Source of the DNA: Blasia pusilla
Taxonomy: Eukaryota
Assembly (NCBI GenBank): GCA_050084515.1
Contig: CM114271.1
Span: forward strand, 45,694,001 to 45,758,000
Direction of reading: 5' to 3'
DNA length: 64,000 nt
Shown here piece after piece: positions 4,230-64,000 of the stretch. Below the pieces are notes generated by a model. The model was not told where the DNA came from, searched no databases, and saw only the letters and a list, made by a program, of their open reading frames with translations. The translations under genes were made by a program, and so were the position numbers. Positions within the stretch are counted from its first letter, which is position 1. Every line of letters starts with the position of its first letter.

Positions 4230-6304
4230 CATGCTTCCCAAAGTTGTATAAGAGTCTCTGAGAGTCTCACTTAAAAATTTTCGTAACCAAGTTGCCTCTC
4301 TGAGAGCTCTAGTTAGAGCCATGTACTCTACTTCAGTAGTGGATAGAGCAACAAATTTTTACTTCTTGCTTCCCCAGCATACAGTTGCGTGTCCTAACAA
4401 GAAACAAAAACCAGAGGTTGATGTTCGATCATCCTGATTACCTCCCCAATCAGCATCAGAGTAACCATACAATGGTTCTAGGTTGTTTTTCCTAGTGCAC
4501 ACAAGTCCTAAGTTTGTTGTCCCTTTTAGATATCTAAAAATCCTTTTTAGAGCACCCCAATGGGCTCAACGTGGTTCAACCATATATCTAGAAATCATAC
4601 TCACAGCAAAAGAAATGCTAGGCTAGTACAAACCATTGCCCATATGAGACTACCTCTTGACGTTTATAAGGTATCTTTCTCATGAAGCTTCTTTCTTCTT
4701 CATTCTCTAGAATCCTTTCTTAATAGCTTCTTCCCAGATTCTACTAGTGTTTCTCTGAGTTTTGGGTGACATTTTAAACTTTTCAAGTACATTGTTGACA
4801 TACCTACTTTGAGATAGTCTAATCCATCCTTCCTTTTGTTCCTAGTTACTTCCATTTGAAGGAAATGATGGATTTCTCCTAGATCTGTCATTCTAAACTC
4901 CTTTTCATTGAGTCTTTGACAAATATTAGCAATGGTGTACAATTACTAATCGATCAGCGTCATCTACGTATATAGGGCAAATTCAACAAAATATTCCTGA
5001 TCATTCGGGATGTAAAATTTGTGTCATTATCACATCTCGAAATCCTATTTTGATCAGAAATCTATCCATCATTTGATACCACAATCTTGATGACTATTTA
5101 AGTCCATAAATGGACTTGTGCGACCTACAAACTTGATCTTGGCAAGTAGGATTTGATAGCCCCTCCTGGCATCTCCATGTATACTTCCTCCTCAAGTATA
5201 CCATTCAAAAATGTTGTCTTTACATCCATCTTATGTACTTCAAGATCAAACTATGTTGCGGAGCAAGCATAACTTCGGATTGAAGTTTTTTACTCTGAGA
5301 TGAGAATGGCTCAGTGTAGTCCACACCATAAACTTGTGAGTAGCCTTTTGCTACCAATCTTGCTTTGTACCTTTCAATGCTCCCATGTGCCTTGTACTTT
5401 ATTTTGAAAACCCATTTTACATCCCACGGCCTTTCTACTGGTGGGAGTGAAGTGAATGACCAAGTGTTATTCAACCTCATGGATTCAAGCTCTTATTCCA
5501 TTGCATCCTTCAAAGAAGCGCTTGCTGCCCAGAGAGCTTCTTCATAGGTCTCGGGTTCTTCAATATTGTTATGCTTCTCTTGTTGACTCATTAACGCTTG
5601 AGTCAACTTCTCCATATCTGGAGTCCTTGCGTGTGATTCTTGATGTCTTTGCATCATATTTCTGCACTTGCCTTGAAACCCTTTCAGATCTTCTTGGTCT
5701 AGCACTCGCTTGTGTTGGAGTTTTGTTGTTGGACTCTATTTGAACAATCTGTGGCTCCTTTTGAACTTGTTCTCATGCAACATCAAGAAAACCACTCTCT
5801 GTTGGAATCTCACTAGCACTCTTACTAGTACTTGGAGTGCTCATACGTGATGTTAGTACATCTTTTCCTTCAGTGGTAGTCAATGCTGGAGTTGGTAAGG
5901 CTCCCACTAAACTCGTTCCCCAAGACTCCAGGAACTCAAACAAGGAATGGTCCTCCTCTTTACGCAAACCAACAAATGCCACTTTTCCCTCTTGGAATTT
6001 TACATCCCTAGAAGTGGTGATGGTTTTGTCAAATTTCTTTTGCAACATGTATCCTTTTCTTTGCTCTTCATAACCAAGAAGAATACATTTAGTTTTATGA
6101 TTTATGATTTTACATCTAGTTTTCTCCTCTGAGAAGAAGGAATTAGTGCAAAAGCTGTACACCAAAAAATTCTATTGTGACTAAGATCTGGAGGCTCTCT
6201 GTACCAAACCTCATATGGTGTCTTAACACCCTCCAGAGCCTTTTTTGGTGATCTGTTCTACAAATAGTTTGCTGTCACTATTGCTTCACCCCAAAAAGTT
6301 TTCG
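4230..6304 (-). mobile_element. Degenerate Ty1/Copia internal fragment (integrase end, RT, RNase H start)
   Basis: KTFWGEAIVTANYL, KCILLGYEEQRKGY, KWVFKIKYKAHGSIERYKARLVAKGYSQVYGVDY, MTDLGEIHHFL and GYSDADWGG. No LTRs recognised. Confidence 0.9.
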
Positions 6305-8345
6305 AGTGACAAGCCAATCTTCCGACGACCCTACAAGTACAATGACATGGAGAGGGTTTTGATTCTGAGTAGCAGCCAAGACTTGGTCGGAGCAGACTAG
6401 TGGAGATGTTGCATGGAGAGTATGCATCTGTCATTGTCATGCCCATCAAGAAGGATGTGCATGGAAACTGGACGGATAGGTGGATGTGTGGAGATTACCA
6501 ACCTATCAATCGATAGACAAAGTTCGATAGGTATGCCAAGCCTACCCCTAAGGAGATCTTTGATATGATTGGGCATACAAAGATCTTCAATTCATTGGAT
6601 TTGAGAGCCGGATACCATCGGCTACCTATCAGATTGGAGGGGCGAGGCGAAGACGGCATTTTGGGGCATTGATCCTCACAAGAAGGATTGATTGTGCCAC
6701 TGGTAGCTCTTACCATTCGGGTTAAAGAACGCCCCGGCTGAGTTTCAGAGGATCGTGGATAGGATCTTGGCATGTCTTGATTTTGCTAGATGTTACATTG
6801 ATGATGTCGTGAGGTTTTAGTGCCACGGTTGAGGAGCATGACGACATCTAAAGGAGGTGTTTTCGACGATTGCATTTACATGGGATGAAGCTACATCCAA
6901 ATAAGTGCAAGTTCTTCTACGACTAGATTGAGCACTTGGGTCATCGATATACCTGGGGGCCTTGGTATGCAGCAGATGAAGATAGAGGCTATTTCATATT
7001 TTCCACGCCCTACAGATGTGAGTCGAGTTTGTGCATTCATGGGATTGGAAAACTTCTATTGACGGTACGTCAAGGGTTTCTGTTTGATTGCACCGCTAAC
7101 CTTGCTAACCAAGGTGGATTAGGAGTGCACTTTGAGGGGGATGAGCAAGAGAGAGCATTTAATTTGCTCAAAAGATATATTGGCGTCTGTGCCCATATTT
7201 AGGGAGATTGATCGGTGGGCGTCATTTCGGTTGCATGCCAATTGGATCATGTTGGGGCTTGGAGTGTGCTCACCTAGCATGACGATGATGGTAGAGAGTT
7301 TGTGGTGGCTTACGCTAGTCAATCAAACAATGTTGGAGAGGCAAAGTATAGCTTGTATGAGGATGAGTGCTTGGCGGTGGTGTGGCGATCATAAATTTCA
7401 GTCTTATTTATTGAAGCCCCTTACCATCATTACCAATCATCAGCCACTTAAGTTGTTGATGGAGTCCGACATGCTTACAGGGAAGCTTGCAAGGTGGGCT
7501 CTTTTGTGCAGGAGTATAACTTCCAAGTGATGCATAGACCTAGGATGCTCAACTAGGATGCACAAAGTTTGAGCCGTAGCCCATGCTCGAGTCAGCGAGA
7601 TGCGATTGGAGCTTGTTGGCATGGTGAGAGTGATGAGGAGTTGATGCTAGGATGGCGGCGTCGCGCCCCTATTTGGGCATGTTGGCTATGAAGAGCCAAG
7701 TTGTTGAGACTTTGGTTGCGAGGTCTGATGGAGAGTCCTTAGATCCAGAGGCTGGTGAGGAGACGATAGGTGGCCGAGATATTCACGACGAGGGAGTAGT
7801 CTTTGAGTACTTACGTACTGGCATCTTCGCGAGCAGAGTGGGTGCTAGAGAGCAGGATCGGATCCTACAGCGGGCAGGCGGTTCGGTGGGAGGAACACAT
7901 GTGTTGCAAGTTTGGGAGGATGGTAGAGTGTGTGTAGTGCCTCATCCGCTGCGAGAGCACATTTGGTACATCATGCCCACGAGAGTTGGGTCATTTTGGA
8001 GTAAAAAGGACGTCTGACTTGCTCCACATATAATATTGGTGGCAAGGCATGGAGACGACATTCAACAGTTGGTTGTCGGATGCATGGTGTGTGATCGAGT
8101 CGGGCATCGTTCAATGCTCCGACTCACACTGCATCCACTTCCGATCATGGGTTTAGGTTATAGATGGAATTTGGATTTTGCAAGACCTTTACCTTTTACA
8201 TAGCGTCAAAGTTCTTATGTATTGGTGATGGTGAGCACTTCTCGAAAGTGGATAGAGTTGGTTGTGAGGATAGCATATGGCATGTGTGAGGCCACCTCTC
8301 ACTAGGGTTCTTAAGGGATGATGGATGTGTTCTAGATGTACATAG
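6300..8345 (+). mobile_element. Ty3/Gypsy pol fragment: RT, RNase H, integrase N-part, then after a deletion the PHD-finger C-terminus
   Basis: DKPIFRRPYKY, GEYASVIVMPIKKD..GNWTD..MCGDY, LDLRAGYH, YIDDV, TNHQPLK..LTGKLARWAL and HPLPIMGLGYRWNLDFA. 8270-8345 matches the PHD tail at 49770-49850. Confidence 0.9.
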
Positions 8346-8528
8346 AGTTGGTAATTCTAGATTTTGACTTGTATCTATTATACGGATGAAAAAAAAAAGG
8401 CGACTAACGATGGGGCCACTTGAGCTCCGAGGCCATATACTCTTAGCATCAGAGAGATGTATGTTATGGTAGGTATGGATAGATAGCTATCCTGGAGTTA
8501 GAGGGACCTAACCACCAACTAGGGAGGA

Positions 8529-9820
8529 TTGGAGATATTTTGGTACTTCTTTTCTTGTTGTTTTGATGCCATGAGTTAGCATGGGATCATGCGTGTTTGT
8601 GTGTATGTTTGTCGAAAATGATGTATGTTGTATAGCGATGTGTATGCATACCACAATTGTCACGACTTTTAGGATAGATCAAAGAGATCTGGTAGAGCGC
8701 CTTTGTGAGTAGAGGAGGACGGACTCATGAGATTGAGGATGATCTGCGAGGTTTCGGAAAACCTAAAAGAGCATGTTTTCCCTTCGTTTCGGCTCATTTG
8801 GACCCATATAGAGAAAGTTTATATTTTGGGTAAGTTTCTATGTTTGGTAGAGTTGACTTTCCACTTTGGGAAGTGGCCCTGACCCCTTCAACAGGTCAAG
8901 AGCCAAGGAGGTCACGACTTTTAGGATAGATCGGAGAGATGTGGTAGAGCGCCTTTGCAAGTAGAGGAGGATAGGCTCATGAGGTCGAGGATGACCTTTG
9001 AGGTCTGGAAAACCTAAGAGAGCATGTTTCCCCTTCGTTTCGGCTCATTGGGAGCCAGAGAAACCTACTATTTTGGGTAAGTTTCCATGTTTGGTAGAGT
9101 TGACTTTCTACTTTGGAAGTGGCTCTTGACCCGCTTCTAGTAGATCAAGAGCCAAGGACATGACTTTTGTGAGCATAGGTTACCGAAAGAGAGCTTGGGA
9201 GAGAGGGAAGGGTGTACCTCAAGGAGAGAGAGCTAGAGGATCATTCTCTTTTGTTGAACCTCTTGGCATGAGGCGGCGGAGCTATGGTTCCTGCCTTGTG
9301 AGTGTAACCAAGGTTGCTTATGGACAAAGTCCGTGGCGTGGATATGTCCATGTCCATGGACTTATGTCCGTCTTATGGAAGAACTTGTCTTTATGGGCCC
9401 CATCTTTCCTTTCTTTGTGCTTTCCCCTTGCCTTCAGTATTCCATACTCCCCATTTCTTCCTCCCTCCACCTCCACTCCCTCCTCCCTCATTGCTCCACT
9501 CATCCTTGACTTGCCTTCCATCATGCGATAAGTGTGGATCCCACTCTTAGAACCCATGTCCGTGGACATGTCGGGACTTACGCCTCCATGTTGCGTCCTA
9601 AGGAAGGACTTGTTCGCCGTTTTAGTGTAATCCAAGCCTTTCCTTAGGAGAGTGGATTTGGTTTGATATTAAGAGAGATTGGATCTACTTGATTTGATTG
9701 GAGATATTTTGGTTCTTATTGTCTCGTTGTTTGGATGTCATGAGTTGGCATGGGATCGTGTGTGTTTGTGTGTATGTTTGTAAACAACTATGTATGTTGT
9801 GTAGCAATGTATATGCATCG
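8529..9820 (+). repeat. Terminal repeat complex of the PHD-Gypsy: extra U5-like block (8529-8655) followed by the LTR (8658-~9820)
   Basis: The LTR starts TGTCACGAC. Its first ~250 bp is tandemly duplicated at ~8911-9160. The last ~125 bp (9698-9820) repeats 8529-8655. Homologous to 48807-49582 on the other strand. Confidence 0.8.
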
Positions 9821-43200: not shown

Positions 43201-43544
43201 ATTGTCAACAAAAAAATTCTATCCAAGATGTAGTCGATACTACGCTAGCCACAAATTATAATTTACACTCTCCATGAAGAGTTGTTGAGATAGCAATGGC
43301 ATGTTTGGAGCCTTCTGCAATAAATAGACCGGATATACAAGTTGTTATTGCATTGAGTGAGGCTTTGGATATAGAGGAGCATCAACAAGGGATAATAACA
43401 TCTTCAAATCATTCTCCATATGACCTTATTGCTTCTACTTTTGACCAATACCAACGTGTTCATCCAGGCTCTTGATCTTCTGCTAAGTCCTCCAACGAGA
43501 GCTTTCCTACAATGACTTGGAGTTCCAATGTTACAGCTAGGTAA
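40221..43544 (+). pseudogene. Partial tandem duplicate pseudogene of the LRR-RLK (exons 6-15 with introns)
   Basis: Colinear with 32263-36084. In-frame stops (TAA 41750-41752 in the Gly-rich loop and others), mutated splice sites, and a deletion after DFG at ~42875 removing the GYLDPE region and exon 14. No 5' exons. Confidence 0.93.
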
Positions 43545-44153
43545 TACTAGTAAAGTATCATAGATTGCAAGGATTTACGCTTTTCCTGTCATCTTCTTTA
43601 TATTTTATCCGTGTTCATAACTCTTAACACAAACTAATTGGATTCAAATGGAGAAAATATCTAAGCATTGAACTATAGCGTTCTTGGACTGGATTAAGAG
43701 TAGTAGACTATTACTCACATTCCAAAATTTCCAAGATGCCCTATCCTAGGGGAAAAAATTGTGACTATAGTTGAATTGGTTCAACACATAAAGTAGCTCT
43801 ACCATATTTTAGGAATTATTACTCTTTAAGCCCAATAGATCAATATCTTACGGATGTCATCTTGAATCTCCATGGCATACTTAGTTTTCACCATGAGGAA
43901 ATTGATGTATCTAATCATTGACCTGCTAGTTTTAATGACCATATCTTTTAGTTGTGCACCATTATTTTCTTTGCTCTATGATTTATCCAAGTTTTTTTAA
44001 GAGCATCGAAGCAAGAGTATTAAGACACCTTAATAATGAAAAATTAGAGAAAATTAATAGGGGAAGTGGTGATGGGATTCTAGATTTATAGTGCAAAGTT
44101 TATCCTTAGAAAGATGTCATGATTTTAAGTTGGTGCATTACCATATAAAGAAA

Positions 44154-45747: not shown

Positions 45748-48700
45748 TATTGAAGATTGAGTTACAATCAAGCTCATGAGACACCTGAACTGCTACATTT
45801 TGGTACTCACAAAAAATAGGGAAGCTTAATCTTGGTTAGTCAGTTAAGCACGATCATCTTAACTAGGGTTAGTTAATCACAATTAGTCTAACTCAAGACT
45901 ATGGTTAAGGATAGTGTTAGGGTTGATTGCACAAACCCTATATAATTGAGAAGAGGACCAGCCTATACTCATTCTCTCATTGCAAATTTCGTTCTCCATG
46001 GTGGTGTGTGTGTGAGAGCCATTTTCCACCAGTTATGCTTGTTTAGCAATTTTCCATATGATATCAGAGCGAGAGGGGAACATCACTTGAAATTCTTAGT
46101 GTTTGAAGAGAGAAGAGAGGCAAGAGAAGGAAAAATTCCAAGAGGAGGAAATTTTATTCAGAGCTCAGTTGGTGCAGATTTCAGGTGGAGCTTTGACGGT
46201 GATAAAACTTTGGAGACATTTTTTAGGGCTTTCCCGGTCGATTCAACCATCTGGGGCCGCTTCGGCTAGAACGACAACAAAGGCTAGTTCTAACCATCCT
46301 ATACAACTTGTTGAGAGCTTTCCAACGTACCCAAAATTTCTCAATTTTGATACTTTGAGCTCTTATGTAGCAATTTCAGTGTAGGAAAGTGCAATTAGTG
46401 AAGAAAAGTTGTGCAATTTGCTCTCTACAGGCCAATTTTGACTAGTTATTTCATTCAGTTGATCAATTTTGGCAAATTTCAGATCGATTTCTATGTAGGA
46501 GTGGTCTATGCTTCAATTGGAGCAATAGAAAGCCTAAAATTACATTTTTATGAGTAAAATCATTTTTGATGGAATATTCCTCAGCAACAATCACAAGCGA
46601 GAAGCTAGACAAGCAAAATTACAATGTTTGGAAGTTTCGCATGAAACAATTTCTCATGGGTCAAGAACTATGGGAGCTTGTCACAGGTGATGAGGCCAAG
46701 CCAAAAGATGACTCAACAGACTTAAATGTTCGCGCTTGGAACAAACGCGCAAGGCAAGTAATCCACTACATTTCAATAACGATCAGTTCGCCAATAATAG
46801 GTCACATCCAAGATGTTGATATTCCGAAGGAGGCTTGGGATGCATTGGAAAAGATGTTCCAAACATCTACAAAAGCCAGAAAGCTTCAATTGAAACAAAA
46901 ATTGAATGAAGTGAGGAAAGGATCGGAGAGCATGAATGATTATATTTTGAGTATCAAACATATTGTTGATTAGTTGAATAGCATTGGAGTGACAATAGAA
47001 GATGATGATCTGATTTTATTCACTCTTCAAGGCCTTCCAAAAGATTACAAGTCCATTGAGATCTCTATCTCTGTGAGAGAGAAGTATCCAACCTTTCAAG
47101 AGTTAGTTCCTCTGTTAATCAATGAAGAGATGCGCCTAGTAGGAGCGGTAGCTCGTCTAGTCAAACAAGAGAGTGCGCTATTTGGGTTATGGATCAGCAG
47201 AGGGGGGGTCGTGGAGAAACTTCCGTGGTCGTGGTGGATATCAAGCATATGGAGGAAGAGGCACTCAATATAACGTCACTCAATCAACTACGAACCGATG
47301 CAGACACAATCACAAGGTGTTGATGGTGGAAACCGTTGGGGTCGAGGTCAACAACAGATGGTCCCTGGATCTTGCAATTACTATGGGAGAAGGGGTCACT
47401 ATGCAAGGTTTTGCTTCAAGAAGAAGGCAAATATGAGAACATGAGCCTTACAACAACAAAACTATGTGGAGCAACAACATCAAGAGCAATACCAAGAACA
47501 ACAACATTCACAAACGGAGCATCTCTTGGTCATGACTCATCATATGGGAGCAATGGTCAAGAAAGACTCGATAATAGATTGGTACATGGACTCTGGTGCA
47601 TCAAATCATATGACCTCACAAGCTAAATGGTTAAATAGTTTGGAGTCGATGAAAGATCCTGCAATTGTGCTCACAAGAGATGACACTCAACATCATATCA
47701 CGTATATCGATAAAGTTCCAATAGCATCGATGATCTTTGTGCTCTTGGAAATGTTCTCTATGTTCCTACCATTGCAAGAAATCTCATCTCTATAGGACAG
47801 ATATTAGAACAGGGTTATCAAGTGAAGTTTAACGTAGATGGTTATTTCATTGAAATAATGGATGACCAAACTACGATAGCCAAAGGAACTAGATCTGGCA
47901 GAATGTTCAAATTAGATGTTTCTATGCTAGAGATTCAAACAACAATGTATGGTCAAACCGGCCAACAAGTCACAGATCTAAATGTGTGGCATAAAAGAAT
48001 TATACATATGAAACTTCAAAGATTATAGAGTCTTTCATCATCTAATATAGTTATAGGACTCCCTAAATTAGCGAGTCCTGTTACGTTAGAGCTATGTCCT
48101 CCTTGCTAATTTGGAAAACAAGCTAGATTTCCTTTTCCAAAGCAAGGTAGAAGAGCATCCAAGATATTCGAGTTGATCCACAATGATGTGTGGACAACAT
48201 CACAACATAGCCTTAGTGGTTCCCAGTACTTTGTTTCATTTATTGATGACTTCTCTAGGTATATATGGGTATATTTTCTGAAGGCCAAGTTAGAGATATT
48301 CTCAATGTTCTAGTAGAGAAGCAGACTGGACAACACATTCTGAAATTGCGTTGTGATGGAGGAGGATAGTATCTTTCAACAGTGTTTGATGACTATTGAA
48401 AGATAAGTCACTTGACGTTCGGATGGCATCCAACGTCAAGTGACTTGCCGTTACACTCCACAACAAAATGGAGTGGCTGAGAGGAAGAATCGACATATTG
48501 ATGAAGCGGCACAAGCTATGCTGAATGAGAAGAACATGCCTAAGGTATATTGGACAGAGGTTGTAGCATGTGCAGTCTTCTTAATCAACCGAACTCCAAG
48601 AGTAGGAGTTCATGATAAAACTCCATTTGAAGTCTTCACACGAAGTAAACCTGATTTTTCCTTCTTGAAAGTATTTGGTTGTATTTGTTATGCTTATGTT

Positions 48701-48806
48701 CCTTTTGAGAGACGTAAAAAATTAGACCCCGAGTCTGAAAGATGTATCTTCATTGGCTATGCTGATGGAACTAAGGGAAATAAGTGCTACATTCCATCCT
48801 CTAGGC
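45748..48806 (+). mobile_element. Second copy of the same Copia family, 3'-truncated within integrase
   Basis: LTR 45748-46058, PBS tgatatcagagc, gag, WYMDSGASNHMT and integrase. Colinear with 13410-16480. Stops at attccatcctctaggc, where a Gypsy LTR begins. Confidence 0.93.
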
Positions 48807-50280
48807 TGTCGTGCGCATACACATCGTTACACAACATACATCGCTATCATCGAGCACACACACAAACACGCACAATCCCATACTAACTCATGGCATCCAA
48901 ACAACGAGACAAGAAGTACCAAAATATCTCCAATTAAAGTAAGATCCAATCTCTCTCTACACAATCTCACACCATAGCTCTCAAAGGTGTGCACTCTCTC
49001 TCATGTCAAACCAAACCTACTCTCCTAATGAGAGGCTTGGATAACACTCACAAGGCAAGGGACCATAGCTCCGTGGCCTCATGCCAAGAGGTTCAACAAA
49101 GAGAGAATGAGCTCTCAAGCTCTCTCTCCTTGGGATATATAACCCCCTCCCCTTTCCCAAGCTCTCTCCATGGTAACCTATTCTCCCAAGTCACCTCCTT
49201 GGCTCTTGACCTGATGTAGGAGGTCAAGGGCCACATACCAAAAATAGAAAGTTGATCATATACTCCAAATGGTACTTACCTAAAATAGTAAGTTTCTCAA
49301 TATGGCTCCAAATGAGCCAAAAACGAAGGGGAAACTGCTCTCTCAGGTTTCCCACGGCCTCAGCATGTCATCATCAACCTGCTAGGCCTGTCCTCCACTA
49401 CTCTTGAAGACGCTTTACTAGATCTTACCGATCTATCCTAAAGGACGTGACAGCTGTCGTGCACATACACATCGCTACACAACATACATCGTTGTCACCG
49501 AACACACACACAAATACGCACGATCCCATGCTAACTCATGGCATCCAAAACAACGAGACAAGAAGTACCAAAATATCTCCAATCGCCCCCTTAGCTGGTG
49601 GTTAGGTCCCTCTAACTCCAGATAGCCATCTATCCCTACCTACCATGACGTACATCTCTTGGACGCTAAGAGCAAGAAGGTCCGGTGCTCATGTGGCCCC
49701 ATCGTTAGTTGCCTTCCTGTCATCCATGTCAGAGAAAAAGTCGGGATCGAAACCTACCTAATATCTCCTCTATGTACATCTTGGACACATCCATTGTCCC
49801 CGAGGAACCCTAGTGAGAGGTGGCGTTAGACATGCCATATGCCAACCTCTCGAATAACCATCACAGACTAGCATCGTGGTCGTACCACGGGCAGAACCAC
49901 ACAACATACAACGCAAGCCTAAGCTCGGATCCACTGTAACATCAATGTTAGGAAGGTGACATGGTGCACAATTATGCACATGGTCCTTCCATACCATACC
50001 ATCGCGTTCCTCCAGCAAGAGAACACCAGATGGCAAAACGTAACACACTCTCAAGATAGTGCGCCCTACAGTCACATCCAACGTCGTCGGTGGCGTCTGC
50101 TGCAAGTAGACATAATCTCCTTGATAAAACCTCCGGATAGTTGGTCGATAACCACCATCCCAAATAGTTGCATACCTCAACGTATCTCGATGCTGCGCAA
50201 TCGCCAAGTTCTCAAACGCCATGGGCATCACTCTTTGAAACAACTCAGCCCTCTGAGAACATGCTCGCATCCATACATTT
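48807..50280 (-). mobile_element. 3' end of a PHD-Gypsy: integrase tail with PHD finger, 3' UTR, extra U5-like block and LTR
   Basis: ORF 49770..50309 has AFENLAIAQHRDTLRY and ends CMLC..MLVCDGYSRGWHMACLTPPL..VPRGQWMCPRC. U5-like block 49455-49582. LTR 48807-49452 (TGTCAC...GCACGACA). Confidence 0.92.
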
Positions 50281-53189
50281 GAGCACTTGCATTTTTGTCC
50301 CATTGTCATCCACCACCCTCAAGGGCATTCCATCTCTCCTCTTTGGCCTTTCCCAAAGATATTTATCTTGTAGTAGATAGCCATACGTCTTATGTCGAAT
50401 CTCCTTGAAGAACTTATCTGTCCATCCACCTTCTCTCTGCAGAGTGCTTAAATAGCGCCTAATTTCTTTCAACTTGCCCTCATACAAATTCTCTTTGGAG
50501 GCTAGAGCATTCTTTATGCCACCCTGTTCTTGCGATGACACTTGCCATACATATGCATCATCCTCATCTATCTCAACTGCCTCCATATTTTCTTCTTGAC
50601 TAAATCTAGCTCTAGGCAACATGTCAGCTACTGAGTTCTCTTTTCCAGCTATATGCCTCAATTGTGGATTTAAGGACCTAATGTAGGCTATCCAACGTAA
50701 CATGGCTATATCTGGAGTTGCACAATTTGCAATCATTCCTAACAGAGGTAGACAATCAACTTCATGCAACATATAGGCTCCCATAAGATACTCCTTCTCA
50801 ACTTTCATCGCAGTCACAACTTCCCAAAGCTCCCTCTTTACCTGAGGGTACCTCCTTTTTTGTTCCGTGAGTGTACGAACTCCAAACCTTGTCGCAAATC
50901 TTCTTCCTTCTACATTATCGTGCCCAACTGCCCACCCGATAGCAATGGGGCTAGTGTCTACTGTGATGATAATAGGTCTTCCACATTCGTAGCTCATTTG
51001 TCATAGAACCGGTGGCAACTTCAATGCCTCCTTTGACTACATCATTGCTGCTCTTTGCCTCTTCTCCCAAGTGAACTTCTTCTTCTTTCTCAACAACTCA
51101 TACAAAGGATCAGATATGTGGCCAAAATGAGGAATCAACACCTCATAAAATACATAAGCTCCTAAAAACCTTCTCACTTCGGTGACATTTTTGTATCCTC
51201 GTATCCTCCCAATGACATCAACTTTTGCTCGATTTGGTTTTCGGCCAAACTCTCCACAAAGATGACCCACTACCACAATCTGAGGAATCCCAAAGCTACA
51301 CTTTTCTCTAAAAAGAGTAAGATTGACCTCTTCTAGTCTTGTTAGGATCATATCCACATCACAAATATGATCAGACACAAACTTTCTACATCCATCTTTC
51401 ACAACCCTCTCAATCCTATCTTCTATTGCACATCCCTTTATAAGAATATCATCTACAAAAGGAATAGTTTTCTCAGGAATGAACTCTCTCAAGATCTTAT
51501 TCATTGCACCCTTCATGTGAGCGATAGAATTTGTTGCTCCTTGAGATAATGTGCACATTCTTACAAGCCCAAGTGGATTACGCATACTCAACTATGTGCA
51601 ATTGTGAAATTTACCATCGCTGCCACCACACTTGTGTCTACACAACCAATTTCTTGTGTAGTAAAAGAGAAGGCCTTACCATATCTCCTTAACATCTCCC
51701 GAAAGCTTTTTCTTTCAATTTATGTGAGAAACTCACCCCCTCCAATTTGCAGACAATCTAGCATACATCCCACTAATGAACTCTTCATCTAATAGAACAC
51801 CCTCATATTTTAACAAACCTTTCTTCTTTTTTTCTTCATAAAACGTCTTTTCTTTTCATTCATTTCTTTCATCATTTGGAATCTACTAGACCACAAAGGA
51901 AAACATTGAGAAAACCCACACCTAAACATGTATGATTCTTCCCCCTCTACTAGCGGAATGCTCTTTCTTTTCTCTGCACCTCCATATTCCCGCTCTACAA
52001 GAGTACTAACTAAAAATCCGAAAACTTTTTCTCTACCTTCATAGGACCATCTCTCAACTTCTCTCTATTCCTTTCATAACCTACTTGTACAGTAAGGAAT
52101 TGAACTGAACTCATTCCATCGACTTCACGATATTTAATATAATGAGACCCATCATCCATGACTTTGGTCTCCATTCTAGATGCTGTGATATAAGGTTGCC
52201 CAATAATCATAGGATAAGCAGCTCCATTCTGAACAAAATAATTTTGCTCAATCAACACATCTCCCATACGAGTTTTGACAGTTGGACAAACACCGTAGAG
52301 TTCACTTTTTGGGTTGTTAGCTGCATGTAGTACCCATCCATGCCTTGTATCAATTGGCCACATCCCTTTGTCGTATACACTTTGTGACATAATGTTGATC
52401 TCCGAACCATGATCAACGAGAGCCAAAACTGACTCTTGGAGAGAGCCAAGTCGAGTTGTAGCCTTCGTCGTTGCACACGCCCAATATGACCGAGAATAGT
52501 GTCCACCATTGTGCCTTTCTTCACCTTGTTCTGTCAAGGCTTCTCCTACTCTTGCCTCTTCTCCTTGTAAGTCAAGCTTTTGTCCAAAAACTTAGCAAAG
52601 CTCTTCATCTTCTTCTTCTGTAATGTCAGTATCCAATGCCCTCACCATCACCATATCTACAGTCATCTACCTTTTCCTTTTGATCACATTTATGATCAAC
52701 TCATGAAAGTCACGTTTGGCTATGCCCAAGACTTCCCTTAGAGAAAACTCTATTTTTGCATCCAAAACCTCTCCTCAAGAATCTCCTTCAAATTTGTGCT
52801 TGTCTATATATCAGACTGCAGCTTGTATGTAGGAGTCTTACCCTGGTCTTCTAAAAACACCTCAATTCATTTTCCTTCATCCATGCTTTTTTGACATTAG
52901 AATCCCTCATAGATTTAGGTGTGAAAGGTCCTTCTTCTCTTGATGGCTGCGCCTCGGGTTTCCCTTTCTTTCTTGCGGTCCTCGCTCTTCTTGCAACTTC
53001 CTCAGGATCAACACCATCATTGTCGCGTCTCCTCTTCTCCTCCACACTAGCATCTTGCCAGCTCACATGTTTCTCTTGTGCTAGGTATGCTTTAAAACAC
53101 CCAACTTCCATTAGATCATCCCATCCAGTCAGATGATGGATAGTCTATGCCCCTCGTATAATTAATTCTAGAGGAAATTGTAATGATTC
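50280..53189 (-). mobile_element. 3' part of Gypsy element 'G': gag end, protease, RT (partly deleted), RNase H
   Basis: TGWDDLMEVGCFKAYL, protease LALVDHGSEINIMS, RT FVDDILIKG and RNase H TVDTSPIAIGW...KRELW...VDCLPL. Confidence 0.9.
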
Positions 53190-59100: not shown

Positions 59101-60467
59101 ATACTACCGAGTTTCTTGTTTTTTACATGCTTTTTAAAGGCAACTGCATAGCCGGTCGGAGCTCTCTAAGATTGAAGCCTCGAAAGAATTTTTTCCCACT
59201 CTATGTCTGTGCAAACATAAGGTGCCTGGTATTTCAATACCACATTGGGTATGGTCTCATCATCCTTCAACCACAACTGAGAACGTATTCTCCTCTCTTG
59301 GAGATCCAATCGCACCGTTGTTGTGTCCTTCTCCCCAGAAAGGAACCTCAATAGGCTCTCGCATACATTTTTCTCAATATGCATTACGTCTAGATTGTGT
59401 TTGCTAGGGTCGAACCCCTGTTAAACCACATATGACAACCATGAGTACAACTGGATGATACACGAGCCTCAATTCTTGAAAGCATCTAGTGTGGCAAATA
59501 ATAAACGTTGCGTAAGAGCAGATGGGTGACATAGATTACCCTCCAGTAGTCCAACTCCACATCAAGTATGCTCTTCCGTTTCACACCATATCTCTGTCTC
59601 GGATCCCGTTGAGCATTTGGAGCTTCTGTATCTTGGCATTCTAGTCCCCCCTCTAAACCCCCACCTGTGCCTCTTTCCATGTCGTACATGGTCTTTTGGT
59701 GTCCCCAATCGAGAATCTGCTCTTTAGTGACTCGTGGAGGTGGACCACGAAGCTCTCGGGCATTGTTGAATTGAACTATCTATGACGTCCTATATCTGTA
59801 AGGATGATCTAATGGGAGGAAACGTCGATGTCGAGTGTATTTCATGCTCCTCAAAGGTTTGGAATGCTCACGAGTGAAATTGGGGCCACATGCAGTACAA
59901 GCCAAATACCCCTTTGTTGCTTGACTAGAAATCATGTCGTGGGCTGGATAATCTCCCAAAGTCAATACCAATTGGGCTTGTAGCCTAAATGGGTTTGGTC
60001 TCCCAATCTGTTGTACCACATCATGGATCCAAATGCCTTTGTACCACAAGCGCTTCAACTCATCCACAAGAGGAGCTATCCAAACGTCTATATTCCTAGA
60101 AAGAGCAGATTGTGGGCCCGGGATTAGCAAAACCAATAAGACAAAAAACTTCTTAGTATTCAACCACGGAGGGAGGTTGTAATTTAGCATGGTTACAAGC
60201 CAGCAAGAATATACATTGTTCTTGTCTCCGAATGGATTGACTCCATCGGTCGAGAGGCCAAGTCTCACGTTCCTTGTCTCTCTTGCAAACTCTGGCCATC
60301 TCCGGTTGATGAATCTCCAATGTTCTGAATCTCCGATGTGCCGCTGCAGGCCATCGATACTCTTATTCTCGGATGTCCAAGTCATCAACTTTGAAATTTT
60401 TGGGCTCCTGTACATCCATTTCAATCTAGGAATGATTTCAAAATGTCGAAGTACCTTGGTAGGCTGC
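53190..60467 (-). mobile_element. CACTA (En/Spm) transposon, 3' portion
   Basis: TIR CACTAGTACAAAA at 53190-53202. Dense ~20-bp ATGACT/AGTCAT subterminal repeats to ~53670. Transposase genes read toward this end. Confidence 0.92.
54420..57533 (-). pseudogene. Second CACTA gene (TnpA/Ptta-like), spliced and decayed
   Basis: Downstream of the transposase inside the TIR. PPPYVDPNQWGRLLTHSMSESAKTKREKMSKAR resembles the plant En/Spm Transposase_24 region. Exon structure not resolved. Confidence 0.55.
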
Positions 60468-60469
60468 AT
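57560..60469 (-). pseudogene. CACTA transposase (Transposase_21/TnpD-like with DUF4218/DUF4216-like regions), N-terminus missing
   Basis: KVLRHFEIIPRL, RNVRLGLSTDGVNPF, NYNLPPW, LLIPGP, GDYPA, MHIEKNVCES, FPPAFFDVMSHLVIH and PFVFPSQVEQAFF. Introns and premature stops. Confidence 0.92.
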
Positions 60470-63400
60470 GGATACGGATCCCTAGACACTTCATTGTACC
60501 CAAATCTTGCATGCTAAATGCAAAACAACTCCTTTAACTCCCAAGGAACTGGTGTATCTGGCGTCGCTCTCCTCCTGTCAACTTAGGGCCCATATCTGGC
60601 TCCCAAGTTTCCATCGTGACTACGGTAGGACTCTCATGCGTGCGTGTTGGTTGTTGCTATGGTGCAACCCCATCTCGCACAACAGAACTCTCAACTCCAC
60701 GTGCAATTCCTGCAACCATGCTCGATGCTGTGACTACCATCTCCTGGCGTACTTGCAAAACATCCCAAGAAGTCCGAGGGTGTCTCTCCTGATCATCCCT
60801 AGTGTGTCAATCTCCTTGAATCTCGCCCCCAGTCACTGACTCAACCGTCTTGGTAGGCATTGGACTCACCAACGCAATAGCTATGATCCGTCGCATCCTC
60901 AAACGATGCTACTCACCTACGCTTAAGCTAAAAATCCAGGTCAAGAGTTCATGTCCATTGCGTGACCCAAGACATGACGTCGCAATGCCTCTGATAGTGA
61001 TGGTACTACCGTCACTCTTATGGGACTACCTCGTCCAACACTCGATTGGCCCTGACACGGCCAACCAACAATGACCAAATCTATGGCCCCTCCCTGCTCC
61101 AAGTCCTACGCTCCCAACAATGAAATATCCCTTGGTAGGGAACTATATTATCCCTCGACAAGGGATGCAGACAACAAGTAAGGAAAACGGAGACGTAACT
61201 ATGCCAAATGGTGAAGTGAAGCACGCATTGCAACATCATCAATCTCCATGTATATATACTGATGCACGCGCACTCCTACCTACAAAACAACAGCTAAACG
61301 AGTGCTGATCCCTCCAAAGAGATCCAACACCCGAATATCCTCCTTTGGAATGCGCCACACAATGGGTGTGGTATCCAAGGGCGTCATCATAGCACTCTCG
61401 GTTATCTCGGGTTTTTCTGACCCATTACGCTTTGGTGCAAACATCTCGCTCCACGCGGTCTGCACATGCTCACTGGCTAAGCATCAAAGCTCCTTCGTCG
61501 AGCCCCAAAGCGGCACCTCTCCTCCACGGACTGACCATCGCACCCCTCTCCATAACAATGTCAAGAATGAGAGTATCCTGTGCATGGACATGTCCCTCAA
61601 TCAAATCACTAGGCCAAATGATGGCGCTGCTAAATGCTGTTGAGGTTGCCATCTCTTATGGTTGGCGCTTCATCACTGCACTTGTGAATTGAACGGGTAA
61701 TGAGATAAGGCGCCCATCACCTGACTGCCATCTTGGTTTGTAGGATGCTGAATCCTCCTAGTAATCTAGGGGAAACCCCATCGGGTACAACACTGCTCCA
61801 CCAACCAAGACGTCGTAGGATTCTAGATCGGTCACTACCGCCTTGGCTCGCACCATGGACTCATCTATAGGGTGTCCGGGGAGAATCCTCACCACGACCT
61901 CACGTCGGGTGATATACTGTGTGGTACTCGCTATAACCAAGGATGTTGGTATCTGAAATGGACAACACTCCACATCGACCCTCATGAGGCCAAAACCTCT
62001 GAATGCCGCTTTCCCCAACATTAGGGGTTGCGCTCTTGAATCCAACAAGAAGCGTTGCAAACCAAAAGCTCTATCTCGTGGACTCACGAACTAGAAGACC
62101 TCTCCCCAACTTTACAGCAAAAAAAAACCAAGAGAAGCCATGGCACTCTCTATCATGGGTCTAGCGGGCATCTCTGCCATCCTTGCAGCCGCAGCCTACC
62201 ATGAATCTGACATGGATGGCCCAAGCATCAGCTCCAAGGGCAGGTCCAAGACCTCCTCTATAATCACCTCTAAACGTGATGCAGAACTCCAACTCCATGC
62301 TCACATCGCGTAGCAGCCAGCCGGAAAACCTTGACAGGCATACCTCCCAACGTCTTTACACTGGAAGCAAAAAGCAAAGGAGCGCGGTCCACAATACTGG
62401 CCACTCCTAACAACATGCTCGACACATGCTCCTCCTGAGCATCACCAATAGGAGTCGTTGCACTCCCTTCTCCCATTGCCCTACATGCCTGCACACCAAC
62501 AACATCACCAACTCTCCGAGAACTCTGATCAGGACCCATCGATGGGGTCCTCATCGCCTCGGACAACGTGAAGGACTGAGGAAGCCTCGTCTATTTCCTG
62601 GCTTCCCTTCGCTATGGTCCAACTCTGCGCTGCTCCACAAGTAATAATTGCATCGGCCTCCATGTGGGCAACCTCGCACATCCAACCAGGATCCTCCACA
62701 TCTCTCGCGGCTCCACAAGACGTCGATGCCATAGATTTGGCATCGGGTAACCTCAATGCCATAGCATCAATATCTTTCTTGAGATTTGTTTTATCGAGCA
62801 ACCATCCCGACCACATGCCTGGAATCCTCGACGCATCTAGGTGGTTGGACTCTACCTCCTCCATGGGCAACTCCACCATCCCCTTGGATGAATCCAACAC
62901 CTCGTCCCCCAATGGGACCACCTAGTGCACGACCTCTGGGCCCACCCTGACCGGGAACTCACTATGGTGCCCTTTCAGGCCCTCGATCTAGACGTAACTC
63001 AAGGTGCAAGCTGAAACACCTAGAGCATGTGTGATCGTACCTCGATAATAGTCACATTGATAACCTTATTATGCAAAGACCATCTCCTCCTCTATCCGAG
63101 GCACGCAACCATGACCCTCACGAGTGCACTCATGATGATGATGGGCTCCACCACATGACCAACAAATAATTGTAAGCGGCTGCTGTTAAGCCGCATATGA
63201 AGGTGCAGGTCTCTGTGGCATGGCCTCCCGATATCCTCCCCGATCTCCCTCGCACACGTGTCCACAGGGTTTGGTCCAACTTTGCGTACCATGACTGGAT
63301 AGCTTGAGCCTCTATCACCCCTTAGTGAAGTTAATCAACCAATGCAAGTGGGTGTAGGCCTCACGCAAACTCTCAGCCGGGCGCCTCTAGAAGTTGTGAA

Positions 63401-64000
63401 TGCTCCACAACTTCTTCGTCCGTACCCCGTGGTAGCTCGCCCTCAACTCAACGAAGAACTCAACCACGAGGTTGAACCAGGGACGAACTCGACCAGACGA
63501 TGCAAGTGCTCTAGTGCTAGTCAGCCATTGTACAACATCATTGGTGGAGGAACTCTCTCCTGACTCCTGCTCCTCACCTCGAAATGGCTCAATCCATGAC
63601 ACATAGTGTGGATCATAGTAGAGTCTCCATGCCTCAAGCTCATGGGCATATCTCTGCGAGAGCTTATGGTAGTCGTCCATGGGTGCCCCCTCTAAATGTT
63701 GGAACATTCGGTTCCATGCTGTAAATGGGTTGAACTCTCAGGAGTTCCTGGCCCATTGTGAGTCACACCAACTTCTAAACTCCTCAATGAAGTCGTGTAA
63801 CTCTATAGTGCCTATAGCACCCAAAAATCCACGCGGTCCTCTACCCCTCACTCAAGGAGTTATCCAAGAAAATTGGAAATTTCACTCACACCTTGGAACG
63901 GTGGCTATGGCAGCCCAACAAAAATGATCATAACTCCATGCTTCAATCTCCAAATCATGTATTTCTTCCATAACGTACACCACTTCCTGATCTACAACCT
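60468..64000 (-). mobile_element. 5' half of a Ty3/Gypsy element: gag, protease, C5-methyltransferase and pre-RT linker
   Basis: gag-like FQHLEGAPMDDYH. Protease FLLDSRAQPLMLGK...YDVLVGGAVLYPMGF (61758-62087). MTase motifs follow. Then CFAFSMQDLGTMKCLGIRIH (~60530-60468), typical of the segment just before Gypsy RT. Confidence 0.85.
60930..61345 (-). pseudogene. DNA (cytosine-5)-methyltransferase domain within Gypsy pol, internally deleted
   Basis: A single frame reads IRVLDLFGGIST (motif I), YIYMEIDD (II), PRDISLL (III), IDLVIVGWPCQG (IV, catalytic PC at 61055-61060), then P.RVTVVPSLSEALRRHVLGHAMDMN (IX/X-like). Four in-frame stops. Motifs VI-VIII are absent. Confidence 0.85.

What the first reader, a model, noticed from the sequence alone, without database searches (positions are those of the whole stretch)
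49770..49925. PHD finger in place of a chromodomain at the Gypsy integrase C-terminus, apparently in the MTase-carrying family
Seen: CMLC-x8-LVCDGYSRGWHMAC-x11-WMCPRC ends the integrase ORF (C4HC3 pattern with one Cys changed to Tyr). The same tail survives at ~8270-8345, on the RT-RH-INT fragment that the inversion model joins to the MTase. Known: PHD fingers read histone H3 tails, chromovirus chromodomains occupy this position and guide targeting, and animal DNMT3 pairs a PHD-like ADD domain with its MTase. Inference: the family layout is gag-PR-MTase-RT-RH-INT-PHD, a retroelement carrying both a chromatin reader and a writer.
Basis: partly seen in the sequence, partly recalled or inferred. 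Interest (0 to 1): 0.82.

Follow-up and report, generated by a model that had tools for sequence, protein, structure and literature searches.

The report
PHD-tailed integrase of methyltransferase-carrying Gypsy retrotransposons
The motif is a real histone-reading PHD finger at the end of the integrase of a plant retrotransposon family that also carries a DNMT3-like DNA methyltransferase, but the copies in this window are broken, rearranged relics.

Summary
The PHD finger is real. It lies at 49776-49910 on the minus strand (Pfam PF00628, E 2.3e-9). Seven of its eight zinc ligands are kept; the Cys-to-Tyr change is private to this copy.

This copy is not an intact integrase. Only the integrase C-terminal region plus PHD survives. 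At 50278 it is fused, out of frame, to the PR-RT-RH of a different Gypsy lineage that has neither PHD nor methyltransferase.

- The gag-PR-MTase fragment (63842-60471, minus) ends at the exact codon where the RT-RH-INT-PHD fragment (6296-8342, plus) begins.
- An intact relative, L024, has gag-PR-MTase, one in-frame TAG, then RT-RH-integrase-PHD.
- 18 of 20 distinct related loci carry the MTase upstream.
- 21 of 22 long PHD-tailed polyproteins contain it.

The MTase is DNMT3-like. The PHD most resembles KDM5, CHD4 and BHC80 fingers. The elements have the split repeats described for KnitGypsy-Dnmt3, published in 2018. This is therefore a new member of a known kind, with an under-described reader domain.

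The parts
49776..49910 (-). PHD finger (C4HC3 with the 4th ligand Cys changed to Tyr), followed by the stop codon at 49770-49772
   Evidence: Pfam PF00628 E 2.3e-9, residues 137-181 of ORF 49770..50318. PDB sequence matches to KDM5/CHD4/PHF12 PHD fingers. At 49855 every read restores a Cys codon.
49911..50278 (-). Integrase C-terminal (post-core) region of the PHD family (called G1 here). It is 60-65% identical to the C-terminal part of full-length RT-RH-INT-PHD proteins.
   Evidence: tblastn of P0008-P0014 and L024 ORF2 863-1035 onto 50279-49773. Alignment A1. Upper limit 50278 from loose read ends on both sides.
48805..49769 (-). 3' non-coding end of the G1 copy, with two copies of the short 'B' repeat (49583-49453 and 48934-48805). 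It is 78.6% identical to the 3' end of fragment A. It abuts a truncated Copia element.
   Evidence: blastn of A against B; inverted repeats I1, I3, I5, I7-I10; self-hits. Read depth is about 150 per direction, against 2-5 in single-copy bins.
50279..52591 (-). NOT part of the family. This is PR-RT-RH plus linker of another Gypsy lineage (called G2 here), joined out of frame to the G1 tail at 50278.
   Evidence: Pfam RVT_1 and RT_RNaseH. RT is only 24-32% identical to PHD-family RTs. No blastn or tblastx match to fragment A's RT/RH. 120 listed relatives at 47-73% identity, none with PF00628 or PF00145.
60471..63842 (-). Fragment C of a G1 element: gag (63842-63250), PR region (about 62261-61548), C5-MTase remnant, in-frame TAG, and the first ~60 codons of ORF2. 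It is cut off at 60471 against an N-truncated CACTA transposase.
   Evidence: tblastn of Marchantia P0135, P0133, P0144 and Calypogeia P0124 and of L024 ORF1. Transposase_21 at 59780-60481.
60759..61519 (-). DNMT3-like C5-MTase remnant. Motif I (LDLFGGI) and motif IV (GWPCQGQS) are present. There are 4 in-frame stops. About 180 residues are deleted internally (P0135 985-1165: motifs VI and VIII and the target-recognition part).
   Evidence: Translations. tblastn P0135 818-984 -> 61519-61025 and 1166-1243 -> 61015-60759. 44% identity to the L024 MTase. Pfam finds nothing directly in this fragment.
60657..60659 (-). In-frame TAG between the gag-PR-MTase ORF and the RT-RH-INT-PHD ORF (context TAG CAA CAA). 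It is conserved in relatives.
   Evidence: The same TAG CAA context occurs in L006, L018, L021, L028, L060 and L071. L022 has TAA and L024 has TAG CAG TTA.
6296..8266 (+). Fragment A of the same G1 element: RT, RNase H, linker, H2C2 and the first part of the integrase core, with many stops and frameshifts. It begins at the codon that follows the end of fragment C.
   Evidence: tblastn. Pfam RT_RNaseH hit below the cut-off at 7123-7530.
8268..8345 (+). C-terminal half of the PHD finger plus stop. It is joined to the integrase core by a deletion of about 290 codons (L024 ORF2 723-1010).
   Evidence: tblastn 72% identity with two in-frame stops; P0010 1014-1037; inverted repeat I8.
8346..9818 (+). 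3' non-coding end of fragment A, with B repeats at 8527-8649 and 9696-9818.
   Evidence: Direct repeat D14; self-hits; 78.6% identity to 49849-49036.

Best explanation
The feature is the C-terminal PHD finger of the integrase of a green-lineage Ty3/Gypsy-type family. The same family also encodes a DNMT3-like cytosine methyltransferase and has DIRS-like split terminal repeats, so it is of the published KnitGypsy-Dnmt3 kind.

In the window's sub-family the intact layout is gag-PR-MTase, one in-frame UAG, then RT-RNaseH-integrase(H2C2, DDE)-PHD.

The window holds three dead pieces.
- A gag-PR-MTase head (63842-60471, minus).
- Its own RT-RH-INT...PHD body (6296-8345, plus), separated from the head by a rearrangement.
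- A separate INT-C-terminus-PHD-3'-end stub (50278-48805, minus), fused to an unrelated Gypsy.

How it most likely works (inferred). The PHD sits where chromoviruses carry a chromodomain. It tethers the integrase-cDNA complex to nucleosomes through the histone H3 tail, most probably unmethylated H3K4. This would steer insertions away from active promoters. The element-encoded DNMT3-like enzyme methylates element or nearby DNA.

My odds: identity and layout about 0.9, integration targeting by the PHD about 0.5, H3K4me0 as the ligand about 0.45.
For: SHOWN.
- PHD by Pfam and by solved relatives.
- 114 of 120 listed relatives of the tail carry PF00628, almost always together with rve, and none carries a chromodomain. 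Named sources are Marchantia, Calypogeia, Sphagnum, Klebsormidium, Pleodorina and Coleochaete.
- 500 of 600 pattern-matching metagenome stretches encode the tail.
- L024 has two intact ORFs with all domains.
- The MTase lies upstream in 22 of 24 testable loci, or 18 of 20 distinct ones.
- A family-specific search finds the MTase in 37 of 120 tail proteins and in 21 of 22 that are at least 1400 aa long.
- The MTase tree and the tail tree share the same supported clades. MTase-tail pairwise identities correlate as well as RT-tail ones do: rho 0.61 against 0.62.
- The MTase's best solved matches are DNMT3A/3B/3C, E 1.7e-7, with motifs IV, VI, VIII, IX and X visible in L024.
- All 8 zinc ligands are kept in 46 of the 69 loci that cover them, and in 100 of 120 proteins.
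- Tail dN/dS is about 0.3-0.4, from a small sample.
- The A-coding-B-A-B repeat structure is present, as the KnitGypsy-Dnmt3 figure legend describes (PMC5890265, passages).
- The exact C/A joint.
- Stranded RNA reads of Cys-bearing copies lie over the PHD.

INFERRED.
- Targeting role, by position and by analogy with chromodomains (Gao 2008, as cited in passages seen).
- H3K4me0 ligand. The nearest solved fingers (KDM5 PHD1, CHD4 PHD2, BHC80, AIRE, UHRF1, DPF3, ATXR5) are, from my recall, readers of the unmodified H3 tail. The family has Gly at His-2 in 71 of 74 loci, where K4me3 readers carry the cage Trp (the rule is recalled).
Against: - No binding, targeting or methylation was tested, and ligand class cannot be read safely from sequence.
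- Nothing in the window is functional. The PHD copy lacks a zinc ligand and has no integrase core. The MTase is deleted internally and carries stops. Pfam finds nothing in the window's own MTase, PR, gag, RT or INT pieces.
- MTase and PHD are separated by a stop codon and about 1000 residues in this sub-family, so they are probably not one mature protein.
- The flanks of the two breakpoints (Copia at 6295, CACTA at 60470) do not fit a simple two-break inversion. The reads did not resolve the 60471 joint, so an assembly error is not excluded.
- The dN/dS sample is small: 11 sequences and 12 pairs.
- One long PHD-tailed protein (P0111) shows no MTase.
Confidence: 0.72

Rival explanations
1. Reader-writer coupling rather than integration targeting. 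The PHD's main job would be to bring or license the element's own DNMT3-like enzyme at chromatin lacking H3K4 methylation, as the ADD domain does for animal DNMT3. The element would then methylate itself or its surroundings.
For: MTase and PHD are co-inherited across the whole clade. In the other arrangement the MTase sits directly before the integrase-PHD unit: RT-RH-MT-INT-PHD in 15 proteins, plus 20 N-truncated ones. Deletion derivatives keep MTase fused to INT-C-terminus-PHD while losing RT, RH and the integrase core: L002, L004/L005, Marchantia P0006 and Sphagnum P0119. The MTase is DNMT3-like, and the PHD is of the class that includes H3K4me0 readers (the class is recalled).
Against: In the window's sub-family a stop codon plus RT, RH and the integrase core lie between the two domains. 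The PHD is always at the integrase C-terminus, where known retroelement readers act in targeting. It is an ordinary PHD, not an ADD: no ADD family was hit. No interaction was tested.
Confidence: 0.2
2. The PHD reads something other than unmodified H3K4, for example H3K4me3, another histone mark or a host protein. It would then target a different chromatin state, or serve nuclear import or stability.
For: PHD fingers are versatile and sequence class is an imperfect guide. Other TE-borne PHDs related to PYGO are reported as H3K4me readers (bioRxiv 10.1101/2021.11.30.470311, passages).
Against: All top solved matches belong to the KDM5-PHD1 / CHD4 / BHC80 / AIRE / UHRF1 / DPF group. The position that carries the cage Trp in K4me3 readers is Gly in 71 of 74 loci (the rule is recalled).
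Confidence: 0.15
3. The PHD at 49770 is a piece of a host gene, or a chance juxtaposition, and is not part of a retroelement.
For: In this copy it is not in frame with any integrase core, and it sits next to a foreign Gypsy.
Against: The 125 residues before it, and about 1 kb after it, are family sequence shared with fragment A and with hundreds of loci where the PHD is in frame with rve.
Confidence: 0.01

Closest known systems
KnitGypsy-Dnmt3 / 'streptophyte Gypsy-DNMT3' (de Mendoza et al. 2018, Nat Commun, PMC5890265; passages read, figures and supplements not seen)
   Same: Gypsy domain set with a DNMT3-type MTase inside the coding region. DIRS-like A-coding-B-A-B repeats (against the figure legend seen). 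A Klebsormidium nitens protein (P0028, rve+PHD) is 52% identical to the window's tail.
   Different: That paper places the acquisition 'in the K. nitens lineage', and its main text never mentions a PHD (0 occurrences). Here the clade reaches liverworts, mosses, Coleochaete and a chlorophyte. It always carries the PHD tail. It exists in two domain orders. The window's type has an in-frame UAG between MTase and RT. I could not tell which order KnitGypsy-Dnmt3 has.
Chromoviruses (Ty3/Gypsy with a C-terminal integrase chromodomain)
   Same: A histone-tail reader domain at the very C-terminus of the integrase. The presumed role is chromatin-guided integration (Gao 2008, as cited in passages seen).
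   Different: Whether the RT falls inside the chromovirus branch was not tested.
Animal DNMT3A/3B with the ADD domain
   Same: A DNMT3-type catalytic domain (best solved matches) is encoded together with a zinc-finger reader of the class that senses unmethylated H3K4 (the class is recalled).
   Different: The two are separated by RT, RH and the integrase, and here by a stop codon. The resemblance is one of logic, not of family membership.
EpiLTRs and DAM-LTRs (bioRxiv 10.64898/2026.05.21.726589; abstract and passages read)
   Same: LTR retrotransposons that combine DNA methyltransferases with a chromatin reader in one element.
   Different: Those combine a chromodomain with an adenine MTase and a DNMT4-related enzyme. 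The preprint names streptophyte Gypsy-DNMT3 as a distinct acquisition.
PHD fingers in other retrotransposons (CR1 non-LTR elements, Chlamydomonas REM1 and Chlamys; cited in PMC6673714 and PMC8557442, passages)
   Same: PHD is a recurrent accessory domain of retroelements.
   Different: Those elements belong to other classes or carry the PHD at other positions. None is described in these passages together with a DNMT.

Membership tests
PHD finger (Pfam PF00628) | Profile match above the curated cut-off | tested here: met
   37.6 bits against 24, E 2.3e-9. L024 tail: 40.6 bits.
PHD finger (Pfam PF00628) | Eight zinc ligands C4-H-C3 with canonical spacing | tested here: inconclusive
   The window copy has 7 of 8 (the 4th is Tyr). 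The family has all 8 in 46 of 69 loci and 100 of 120 proteins. Other copies in the same species have Cys at this position.
Ty3/Gypsy integrase with a C-terminal accessory domain | PHD in the same ORF as the H2C2 and DDE (rve) integrase domains | tested here: met
   Met in the family: L024 ORF2 has H2C2 614-668, rve 687-780 and PHD 990-1034, and rve+PHD occurs in most of the 120 relatives. NOT met in the window copy, which lacks the core and is fused out of frame to another lineage.
Gypsy-DNMT3 (KnitGypsy-Dnmt3 kind) | DNMT3-type C5-MTase encoded inside the element's gag-pol region | tested here: met
   L024 ORF1 has PF00145 at E 1.8e-13, and its best solved matches are DNMT3A/B/C. The window's fragment C keeps motifs I and IV only, and Pfam finds nothing in it directly.
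Gypsy-DNMT3 (KnitGypsy-Dnmt3 kind) | DIRS-like split direct repeats (A-coding-B-A-B) with Gypsy-type protein domains | tested here: met
   L021, L065 and L072. The window copies keep the two B repeats. The 5' A repeat of fragment C would lie beyond the window's end.
Gypsy-DNMT3 (KnitGypsy-Dnmt3 kind) | Direct sequence relationship to the published K. nitens elements | tested here: inconclusive
   Only one named K. nitens protein (P0028, rve+PHD, 52% identity to the tail) was recovered.
Chromovirus | Chromodomain at the integrase C-terminus | tested here: not met
   No PF00385 in the window ORF, in L024 or in the 120 relatives.
H3K4me0-reading PHD class (KDM5 PHD1, CHD4 PHD2, BHC80, AIRE PHD1) | Closest sequence relatives among solved fingers belong to this class, and the K4me3 cage Trp at His-2 is absent | tested here: met
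   top hits; Gly at His-2 in 71 of 74 loci. Which ligands those solved fingers bind is recalled, not shown by a call.
H3K4me0-reading PHD class (KDM5 PHD1, CHD4 PHD2, BHC80, AIRE PHD1) | Binding of the H3 N-terminus that is abolished by K4 methylation | not testable with these tools
   Needs peptide binding assays.
DNMT3 ADD-MTase module | ADD (GATA-like plus PHD) domain adjacent to the catalytic domain in one polypeptide | tested here: not met
   No ADD family was hit. The PHD is about 1000 residues and one stop codon away from the MTase.

The most novel reading that the evidence does not exclude
A PHD reader of the KDM5/CHD4/BHC80 type on the integrase and a DNMT3-type writer form an ancient, co-inherited pair that defines a whole clade of Gypsy-like elements. 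The clade spans chlorophytes, charophytes, liverworts and mosses. The MTase has moved within the polyprotein (RT-RH-MT-INT-PHD versus PR-MT-UAG-RT-RH-INT-PHD) without ever being uncoupled from the PHD. Together the two domains would let the element choose H3K4-unmethylated chromatin and write 5mC on itself, a retroelement-borne counterpart of the animal ADD-DNMT3 logic. Non-autonomous derivatives that keep just MTase plus PHD would point to selection on the pair itself.
Probability: 0.25. Interest if true: 0.75.

Novelty: new member of a known kind. Interest (0 to 1): 0.5.

Why it matters
DNMT-carrying retrotransposons are a known curiosity whose purpose is unsettled. This work shows that in the green-lineage Gypsy-DNMT3 clade the MTase always travels with a histone-reading PHD finger on the integrase. 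It also shows that the clade lives in Marchantia. From recall, Marchantia has histone and methylation maps and is open to genetics.

That turns a vague idea ('TEs manipulate host epigenetics') into concrete tests:
- which H3 state the PHD binds;
- where young copies land;
- whether the MTase methylates the element.

It also warns annotators of three things. Precomputed Pfam labels flagged the MTase in only 5 of the 37 proteins that hold it. The window's own PHD copy is a chimeric relic. At least one member of the family is filed under a cyanobacterial bin.

Tried and rejected
1. Whole-genome search was not possible because no genome is held.

2. My first regex scan for DNMT motifs found nothing because the patterns were too strict. 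The MTase was found later by tblastn.

3. Pfam run directly on the window's MTase, PR, gag, RT and INT fragments gave 0 families. These assignments rest on homology to relatives.

4. I first read the N-terminus of the 182-aa ORF as an H2C2 remnant of one internally deleted element. I rejected this. Alignment A1 shows it is family sequence just before the integrase C-terminal region. The upstream RT/RH is a different lineage. Read ends split at 50278.

5. I considered fragment C plus the 49770 tail as one element riddled with insertions. I rejected this in favour of C plus A because of the exact codon joint.

6. A simple two-break inversion does not fit. The reciprocal flanks are a truncated Copia and an N-truncated CACTA transposase, which do not continue each other. 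The history is more complex, or the assembly is wrong.

7. Reads: no RNA holder was listed in the index.

8. No terminal repeats were found in L024. The contig probably ends inside them.

9. dN/dS could be computed on only 11 stop-free tails and 12 pairs, so it is weak.

10. The RT tree did not finish, and the tail tree is the quick version.

11. Structure prediction, fold search and complex prediction were not run, because the sequence matches to solved PHD and DNMT3 chains were already clear.

12. Literature searches found no text describing a PHD in Gypsy-DNMT3 elements, or such elements in bryophytes. Figures and supplements could not be seen, and subscription journals are not covered.
Full report
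OBSERVATION

The feature is on the minus strand. ORF 49770..50318(-) is 182 aa and ends with CMLC-x11-CDGY-x4-H-x2-C-x14-C-x2-C and a stop. Pfam PF00628 (PHD) matches residues 137-181, which is window 49776-49910, at E 2.3e-9 and 37.6 bits against a cut-off of 24.

Against the sequences of solved structures, the window's own 56 residues match 71 chains at E<=0.001. The best are Drosophila Lid/KDM5 PHD1 (2.8e-14), CHD4 (3e-14), KDM5B and KDM5A PHD1, PHF12, KAT6A, KMT2D, PHF21A/BHC80, ATXR5 and DPF3.

The second copy of the tail is at 8268-8342(+). It is 72% identical in protein, has two in-frame stops, and is 82% complementary in DNA to 49768-49858.

WHAT SURROUNDS IT

The window is land-plant DNA. 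It holds a malectin-like receptor-kinase piece, a SWIM/MULE ORF, a CACTA transposase and two Copia copies, at 40.8% GC. The best protein matches to the tail come from liverworts: Calypogeia fissa at 77% and Marchantia polymorpha at 76%.

Upstream of the PHD ORF on the minus strand lie RNase H (50245-51000), part of RT (51037-51591) and a protease-like ORF (52010-52591). These do not belong with the PHD tail, for four reasons.

- The tail is 60-65% identical to full-length RT-RH-INT-PHD proteins, while this RT/RH is only 24-32% identical to the same proteins.
- It has no blastn or tblastx match to the RT/RH of the other PHD-family fragment in the window, although the two tails and about 1 kb of 3' sequence are 78.6% identical in DNA.
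- Its 120 listed relatives (47-73% identity; Riccia, Adiantum, metagenomes) include none with PF00628 or PF00145.
- Reads of the same species label end their match at 50278 from both sides. Reads matching the tail continue with sequence that translates to GEVLDLDDP, a motif in 23 of 120 PHD-family proteins and 0 of 120 of the other lineage. Reads matching the RH side continue with EFHNSLWAGH, found in 24 of 120 of the other lineage and 0 of 120 of the PHD family.

So 50278 is a joint between two lineages, which I call G2 (PR-RT-RH) and G1 (INT C-terminus-PHD-3' end). The two ORFs overlap in different frames. This copy has no H2C2 or DDE core and cannot make an integrase.

The Tyr is private to this copy. 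At 49855 all reads carry the base that restores Cys: 24 of 24 in DNA run X12 and 12 of 12 in RNA run X15.

THE METHYLTRANSFERASE AND THE 'INVERSION MODEL'

On the minus strand from 63842 down to 60471 lie four things: gag, a protease region, a C5-MTase remnant, and the first ~60 codons of the RT-bearing ORF. They were mapped with Marchantia proteins P0135 and P0133, Calypogeia P0124 and the intact relative L024.

The MTase keeps motif I (LDLFGGI) and motif IV (GWPCQGQS). It has four in-frame stops and lacks about 180 residues (P0135 985-1165). Pfam finds nothing in it directly. It is 44% identical to the L024 MTase.

This fragment (C) stops at 60471 against an N-truncated CACTA transposase. 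Fragment A (6296-8345, plus strand) starts at the very next codon. P0013 residues 18-64 map to 60611-60471(-) and residues 65-256 to 6296-6871(+). The same joint appears with P0009, P0010, P0144 and L024 ORF2.

C and A were therefore once one element: gag-PR-MTase-RT-RH-INT...PHD-3' end. Turning 6296-60470 around would rejoin them. The reciprocal flanks are a truncated Copia and the truncated CACTA, which do not continue each other. The history is therefore more complex, or the assembly is wrong. The reads did not settle this.

Fragment A itself has lost about 290 codons between the integrase core and the second half of the PHD.

THE FAMILY OUTSIDE THE WINDOW

A search for longer proteins with the 182-aa ORF gave 135 hits, of which 120 are listed. 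114 list PF00628, nearly always with rve, and none lists a chromodomain. Named sources are Marchantia, Calypogeia, Sphagnum, Klebsormidium nitens, Pleodorina starrii and a Coleochaete scutata transcript.

A scan of metagenome contigs, using only tail patterns, confirmed 500 of 600 candidate stretches. 80 loci were kept.

In L024 the element is intact.
- ORF1 (1369 aa) has an aspartyl protease and DNA_methylase (E 1.8e-13).
- ORF2 (1047 aa) has RVT_1, RNase H, H2C2, rve and PHD (E 2.6e-10).
- The two are in the same frame and are separated by one TAG.

24 loci hold the RT start and at least 1.5 kb upstream. 22 of them have the MTase directly upstream on the same strand. After collapsing loci that are at least 97% identical, the count is 18 of 20. 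The two exceptions are a copy truncated at the ORF2 start (L017) and a copy with an internal deletion from PR to the end of ORF1 (L020).

Precomputed Pfam labels showed PF00145 in only 5 of the 120 proteins. A local phmmer search with the family's own MTase finds it in 37 of 120, and in 21 of the 22 that are at least 1400 aa long.

Two domain orders exist.
- Type 1: RT-RH-MT-INT-PHD. 15 proteins show it in full, and 20 more are N-truncated forms. Pleodorina is among them.
- Type 2, the window's order: PR-MT-RT-RH-INT-PHD.

The MTase tree and the tail tree share the same supported clades. These include the type-1/type-2 split, at 100/98 in the MTase tree and 99 in the quick tail tree. Pairwise identities of MTase and tail correlate as well as those of RT and tail: rho 0.61 against 0.62. 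The pairs are not independent. This fits co-inheritance of the two domains. It does not prove a single capture.

WHAT KIND OF DOMAINS

The L024 MTase matches DNMT3A, 3B and 3C catalytic domains best (E 1.7e-7). Motifs IV, VI (IFENV), VIII, IX and X are visible.

The PHD tails match the KDM5 PHD1, CHD4, PHF12, BHC80, KAT6A, DPF3, ATXR5, UHRF1, AIRE and BAZ2 fingers. From my recall, most of these read the unmodified H3 tail. In the family the residue two before the His is Gly in 71 of 74 loci. From recall, H3K4me3 readers carry their cage Trp at that position.

All eight ligands are kept in 46 of the 69 loci that cover them and in 100 of 120 proteins. The others show single changes typical of decay. 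Pairwise dN/dS is about 0.29 for the PHD and 0.44 for the integrase C-terminal region, from only 12 pairs.

Stranded RNA reads of related, Cys-bearing copies lie over the tail and the 3' end in the sense direction.

MECHANISM

Shown: the domain identities, their order, their co-occurrence, and their conservation.

Inferred: the PHD occupies the place of the chromovirus chromodomain. It most likely tethers the integration complex to nucleosomes. My best guess for the mark is H3 tails lacking K4 methylation, which would keep insertions out of active promoters. The DNMT3-like enzyme would methylate element DNA.

The main rival is that the PHD chiefly serves the MTase, in an ADD-like way. Two observations speak for this: the MT-INT-PHD adjacency in type 1, and deletion derivatives that keep MTase and PHD but lose RT, RH and the integrase core (L002, L004/L005, Marchantia P0006, Sphagnum P0119). 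One speaks against it: in the window's type a stop codon and about 1000 residues lie between the two domains.

COMPARISON WITH WHAT IS KNOWN

De Mendoza et al. 2018 (PMC5890265; passages read) described KnitGypsy-Dnmt3 in Klebsormidium nitens. It has Dnmt3 inside the Pol ORF of a Gypsy element, with DIRS-like repeats. L021, L065 and L072 have exactly that A-coding-B-A-B structure, and the window's copies keep the two B repeats. That paper's main text has no occurrence of 'PHD', and it speaks of an acquisition in the K. nitens lineage.

Later papers refer to 'streptophyte Gypsy-DNMT3'. A 2026 preprint presents chromodomain plus DAM plus DNMT 'EpiLTRs' as a new reader-plus-writer combination. 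PHD fingers are known accessory domains of other retroelements.

My seven searches found no text on a PHD in Gypsy-DNMT3 elements, or on such elements in bryophytes. Figures, supplements and subscription journals were out of reach.

VERDICT

The element kind has been published since 2018. What seems under-described is:
- the clade-wide pairing of the DNMT3-like MTase with a KDM5/CHD4-type PHD on the integrase;
- its spread from chlorophytes to bryophytes;
- the two domain orders;
- the conserved in-frame UAG.

I rate the novelty as 'new member of a known kind' and the interest at 0.5.

Noticed in passing
window 60657-60659 (-); L024 5083-5085; L006, L018, L021, L022, L028, L060, L071: A single in-frame stop separates the gag-PR-MTase ORF from the RT-RH-INT-PHD ORF, which is in the same frame. 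The context is conserved: TAG CAA in six loci and in the window, TAG CAG TTA in L024, TAA in L022. From recall, this resembles the plant-virus leaky-stop context UAG CAR YYA. More distant sub-families (L056, L065, L067/L068, L072) have no stop there.
   Followed up: partly
L021 1676-2017 / 10238-10805; L065 and L072 likewise; window 8527-8649 ~ 9696-9818 and 49583-49453 ~ 48934-48805: These DDE-integrase elements have DIRS-like split direct repeats (A-coding-B-A-B) instead of plain LTRs.
   Followed up: partly
window 6295|6296 and 60470|60471: One Gypsy element is split at a single codon into two pieces 54 kb apart on opposite strands. The outer flanks are a truncated Copia and an N-truncated CACTA transposase, so this is a complex rearrangement or a mis-assembly. 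The reads did not resolve it.
   Followed up: partly
window 50278: An out-of-frame joint between two unrelated Gypsy lineages. It is marked by hundreds of reads from other copies that diverge at exactly this base, from both sides.
   Followed up: yes
L002, L004/L005, L047/L052; proteins P0006 (Marchantia Mp_7g09570) and P0119 (Sphagnum magellanicum): Deletion derivatives join gag-PR-MTase, or gag-PR alone, straight to the integrase C-terminus-PHD and lose RT, RH and the integrase core. Some of them are annotated as host genes.
   Followed up: partly
window 48700-52300 against reads: Differences between the window and reads of related copies are mostly window A or T against read G or C: A>G at 88 places and T>C at 116 places in X12. 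This is GC-to-AT decay of the window's copies, as expected for methylated, silenced repeats.
   Followed up: no
proteins P0001-P0120: Precomputed Pfam labels flag the MTase in only 5 proteins, while a family-specific search finds it in 37. DNMT-carrying elements are therefore easy to miss in domain censuses.
   Followed up: yes
cluster of P0013 (member P0429): One member of this eukaryotic retrotransposon protein cluster is deposited under an 'uncultured Synechococcales cyanobacterium'. It is probably a mis-binned plant or algal contig.
   Followed up: no
window 11600-13400 and 18700-20000: Arrays of a repeat of about 330 bp flank a Copia element at about 14200-18400. A second Copia copy at 46545-48711 is about 90% identical to it.
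   Followed up: no
window 33352-36145 and 41308-43605: A segmental duplication, 81-88% identical and about 7.5-8 kb apart, next to malectin-like and kinase ORFs (29703-30425, 33626-34027). It looks like a duplicated receptor-kinase gene region.
   Followed up: no
window 39-242 (+): A short integrase-core-like piece, 27-37% identical to PHD-family integrases. Its lineage was not determined.
   Followed up: no
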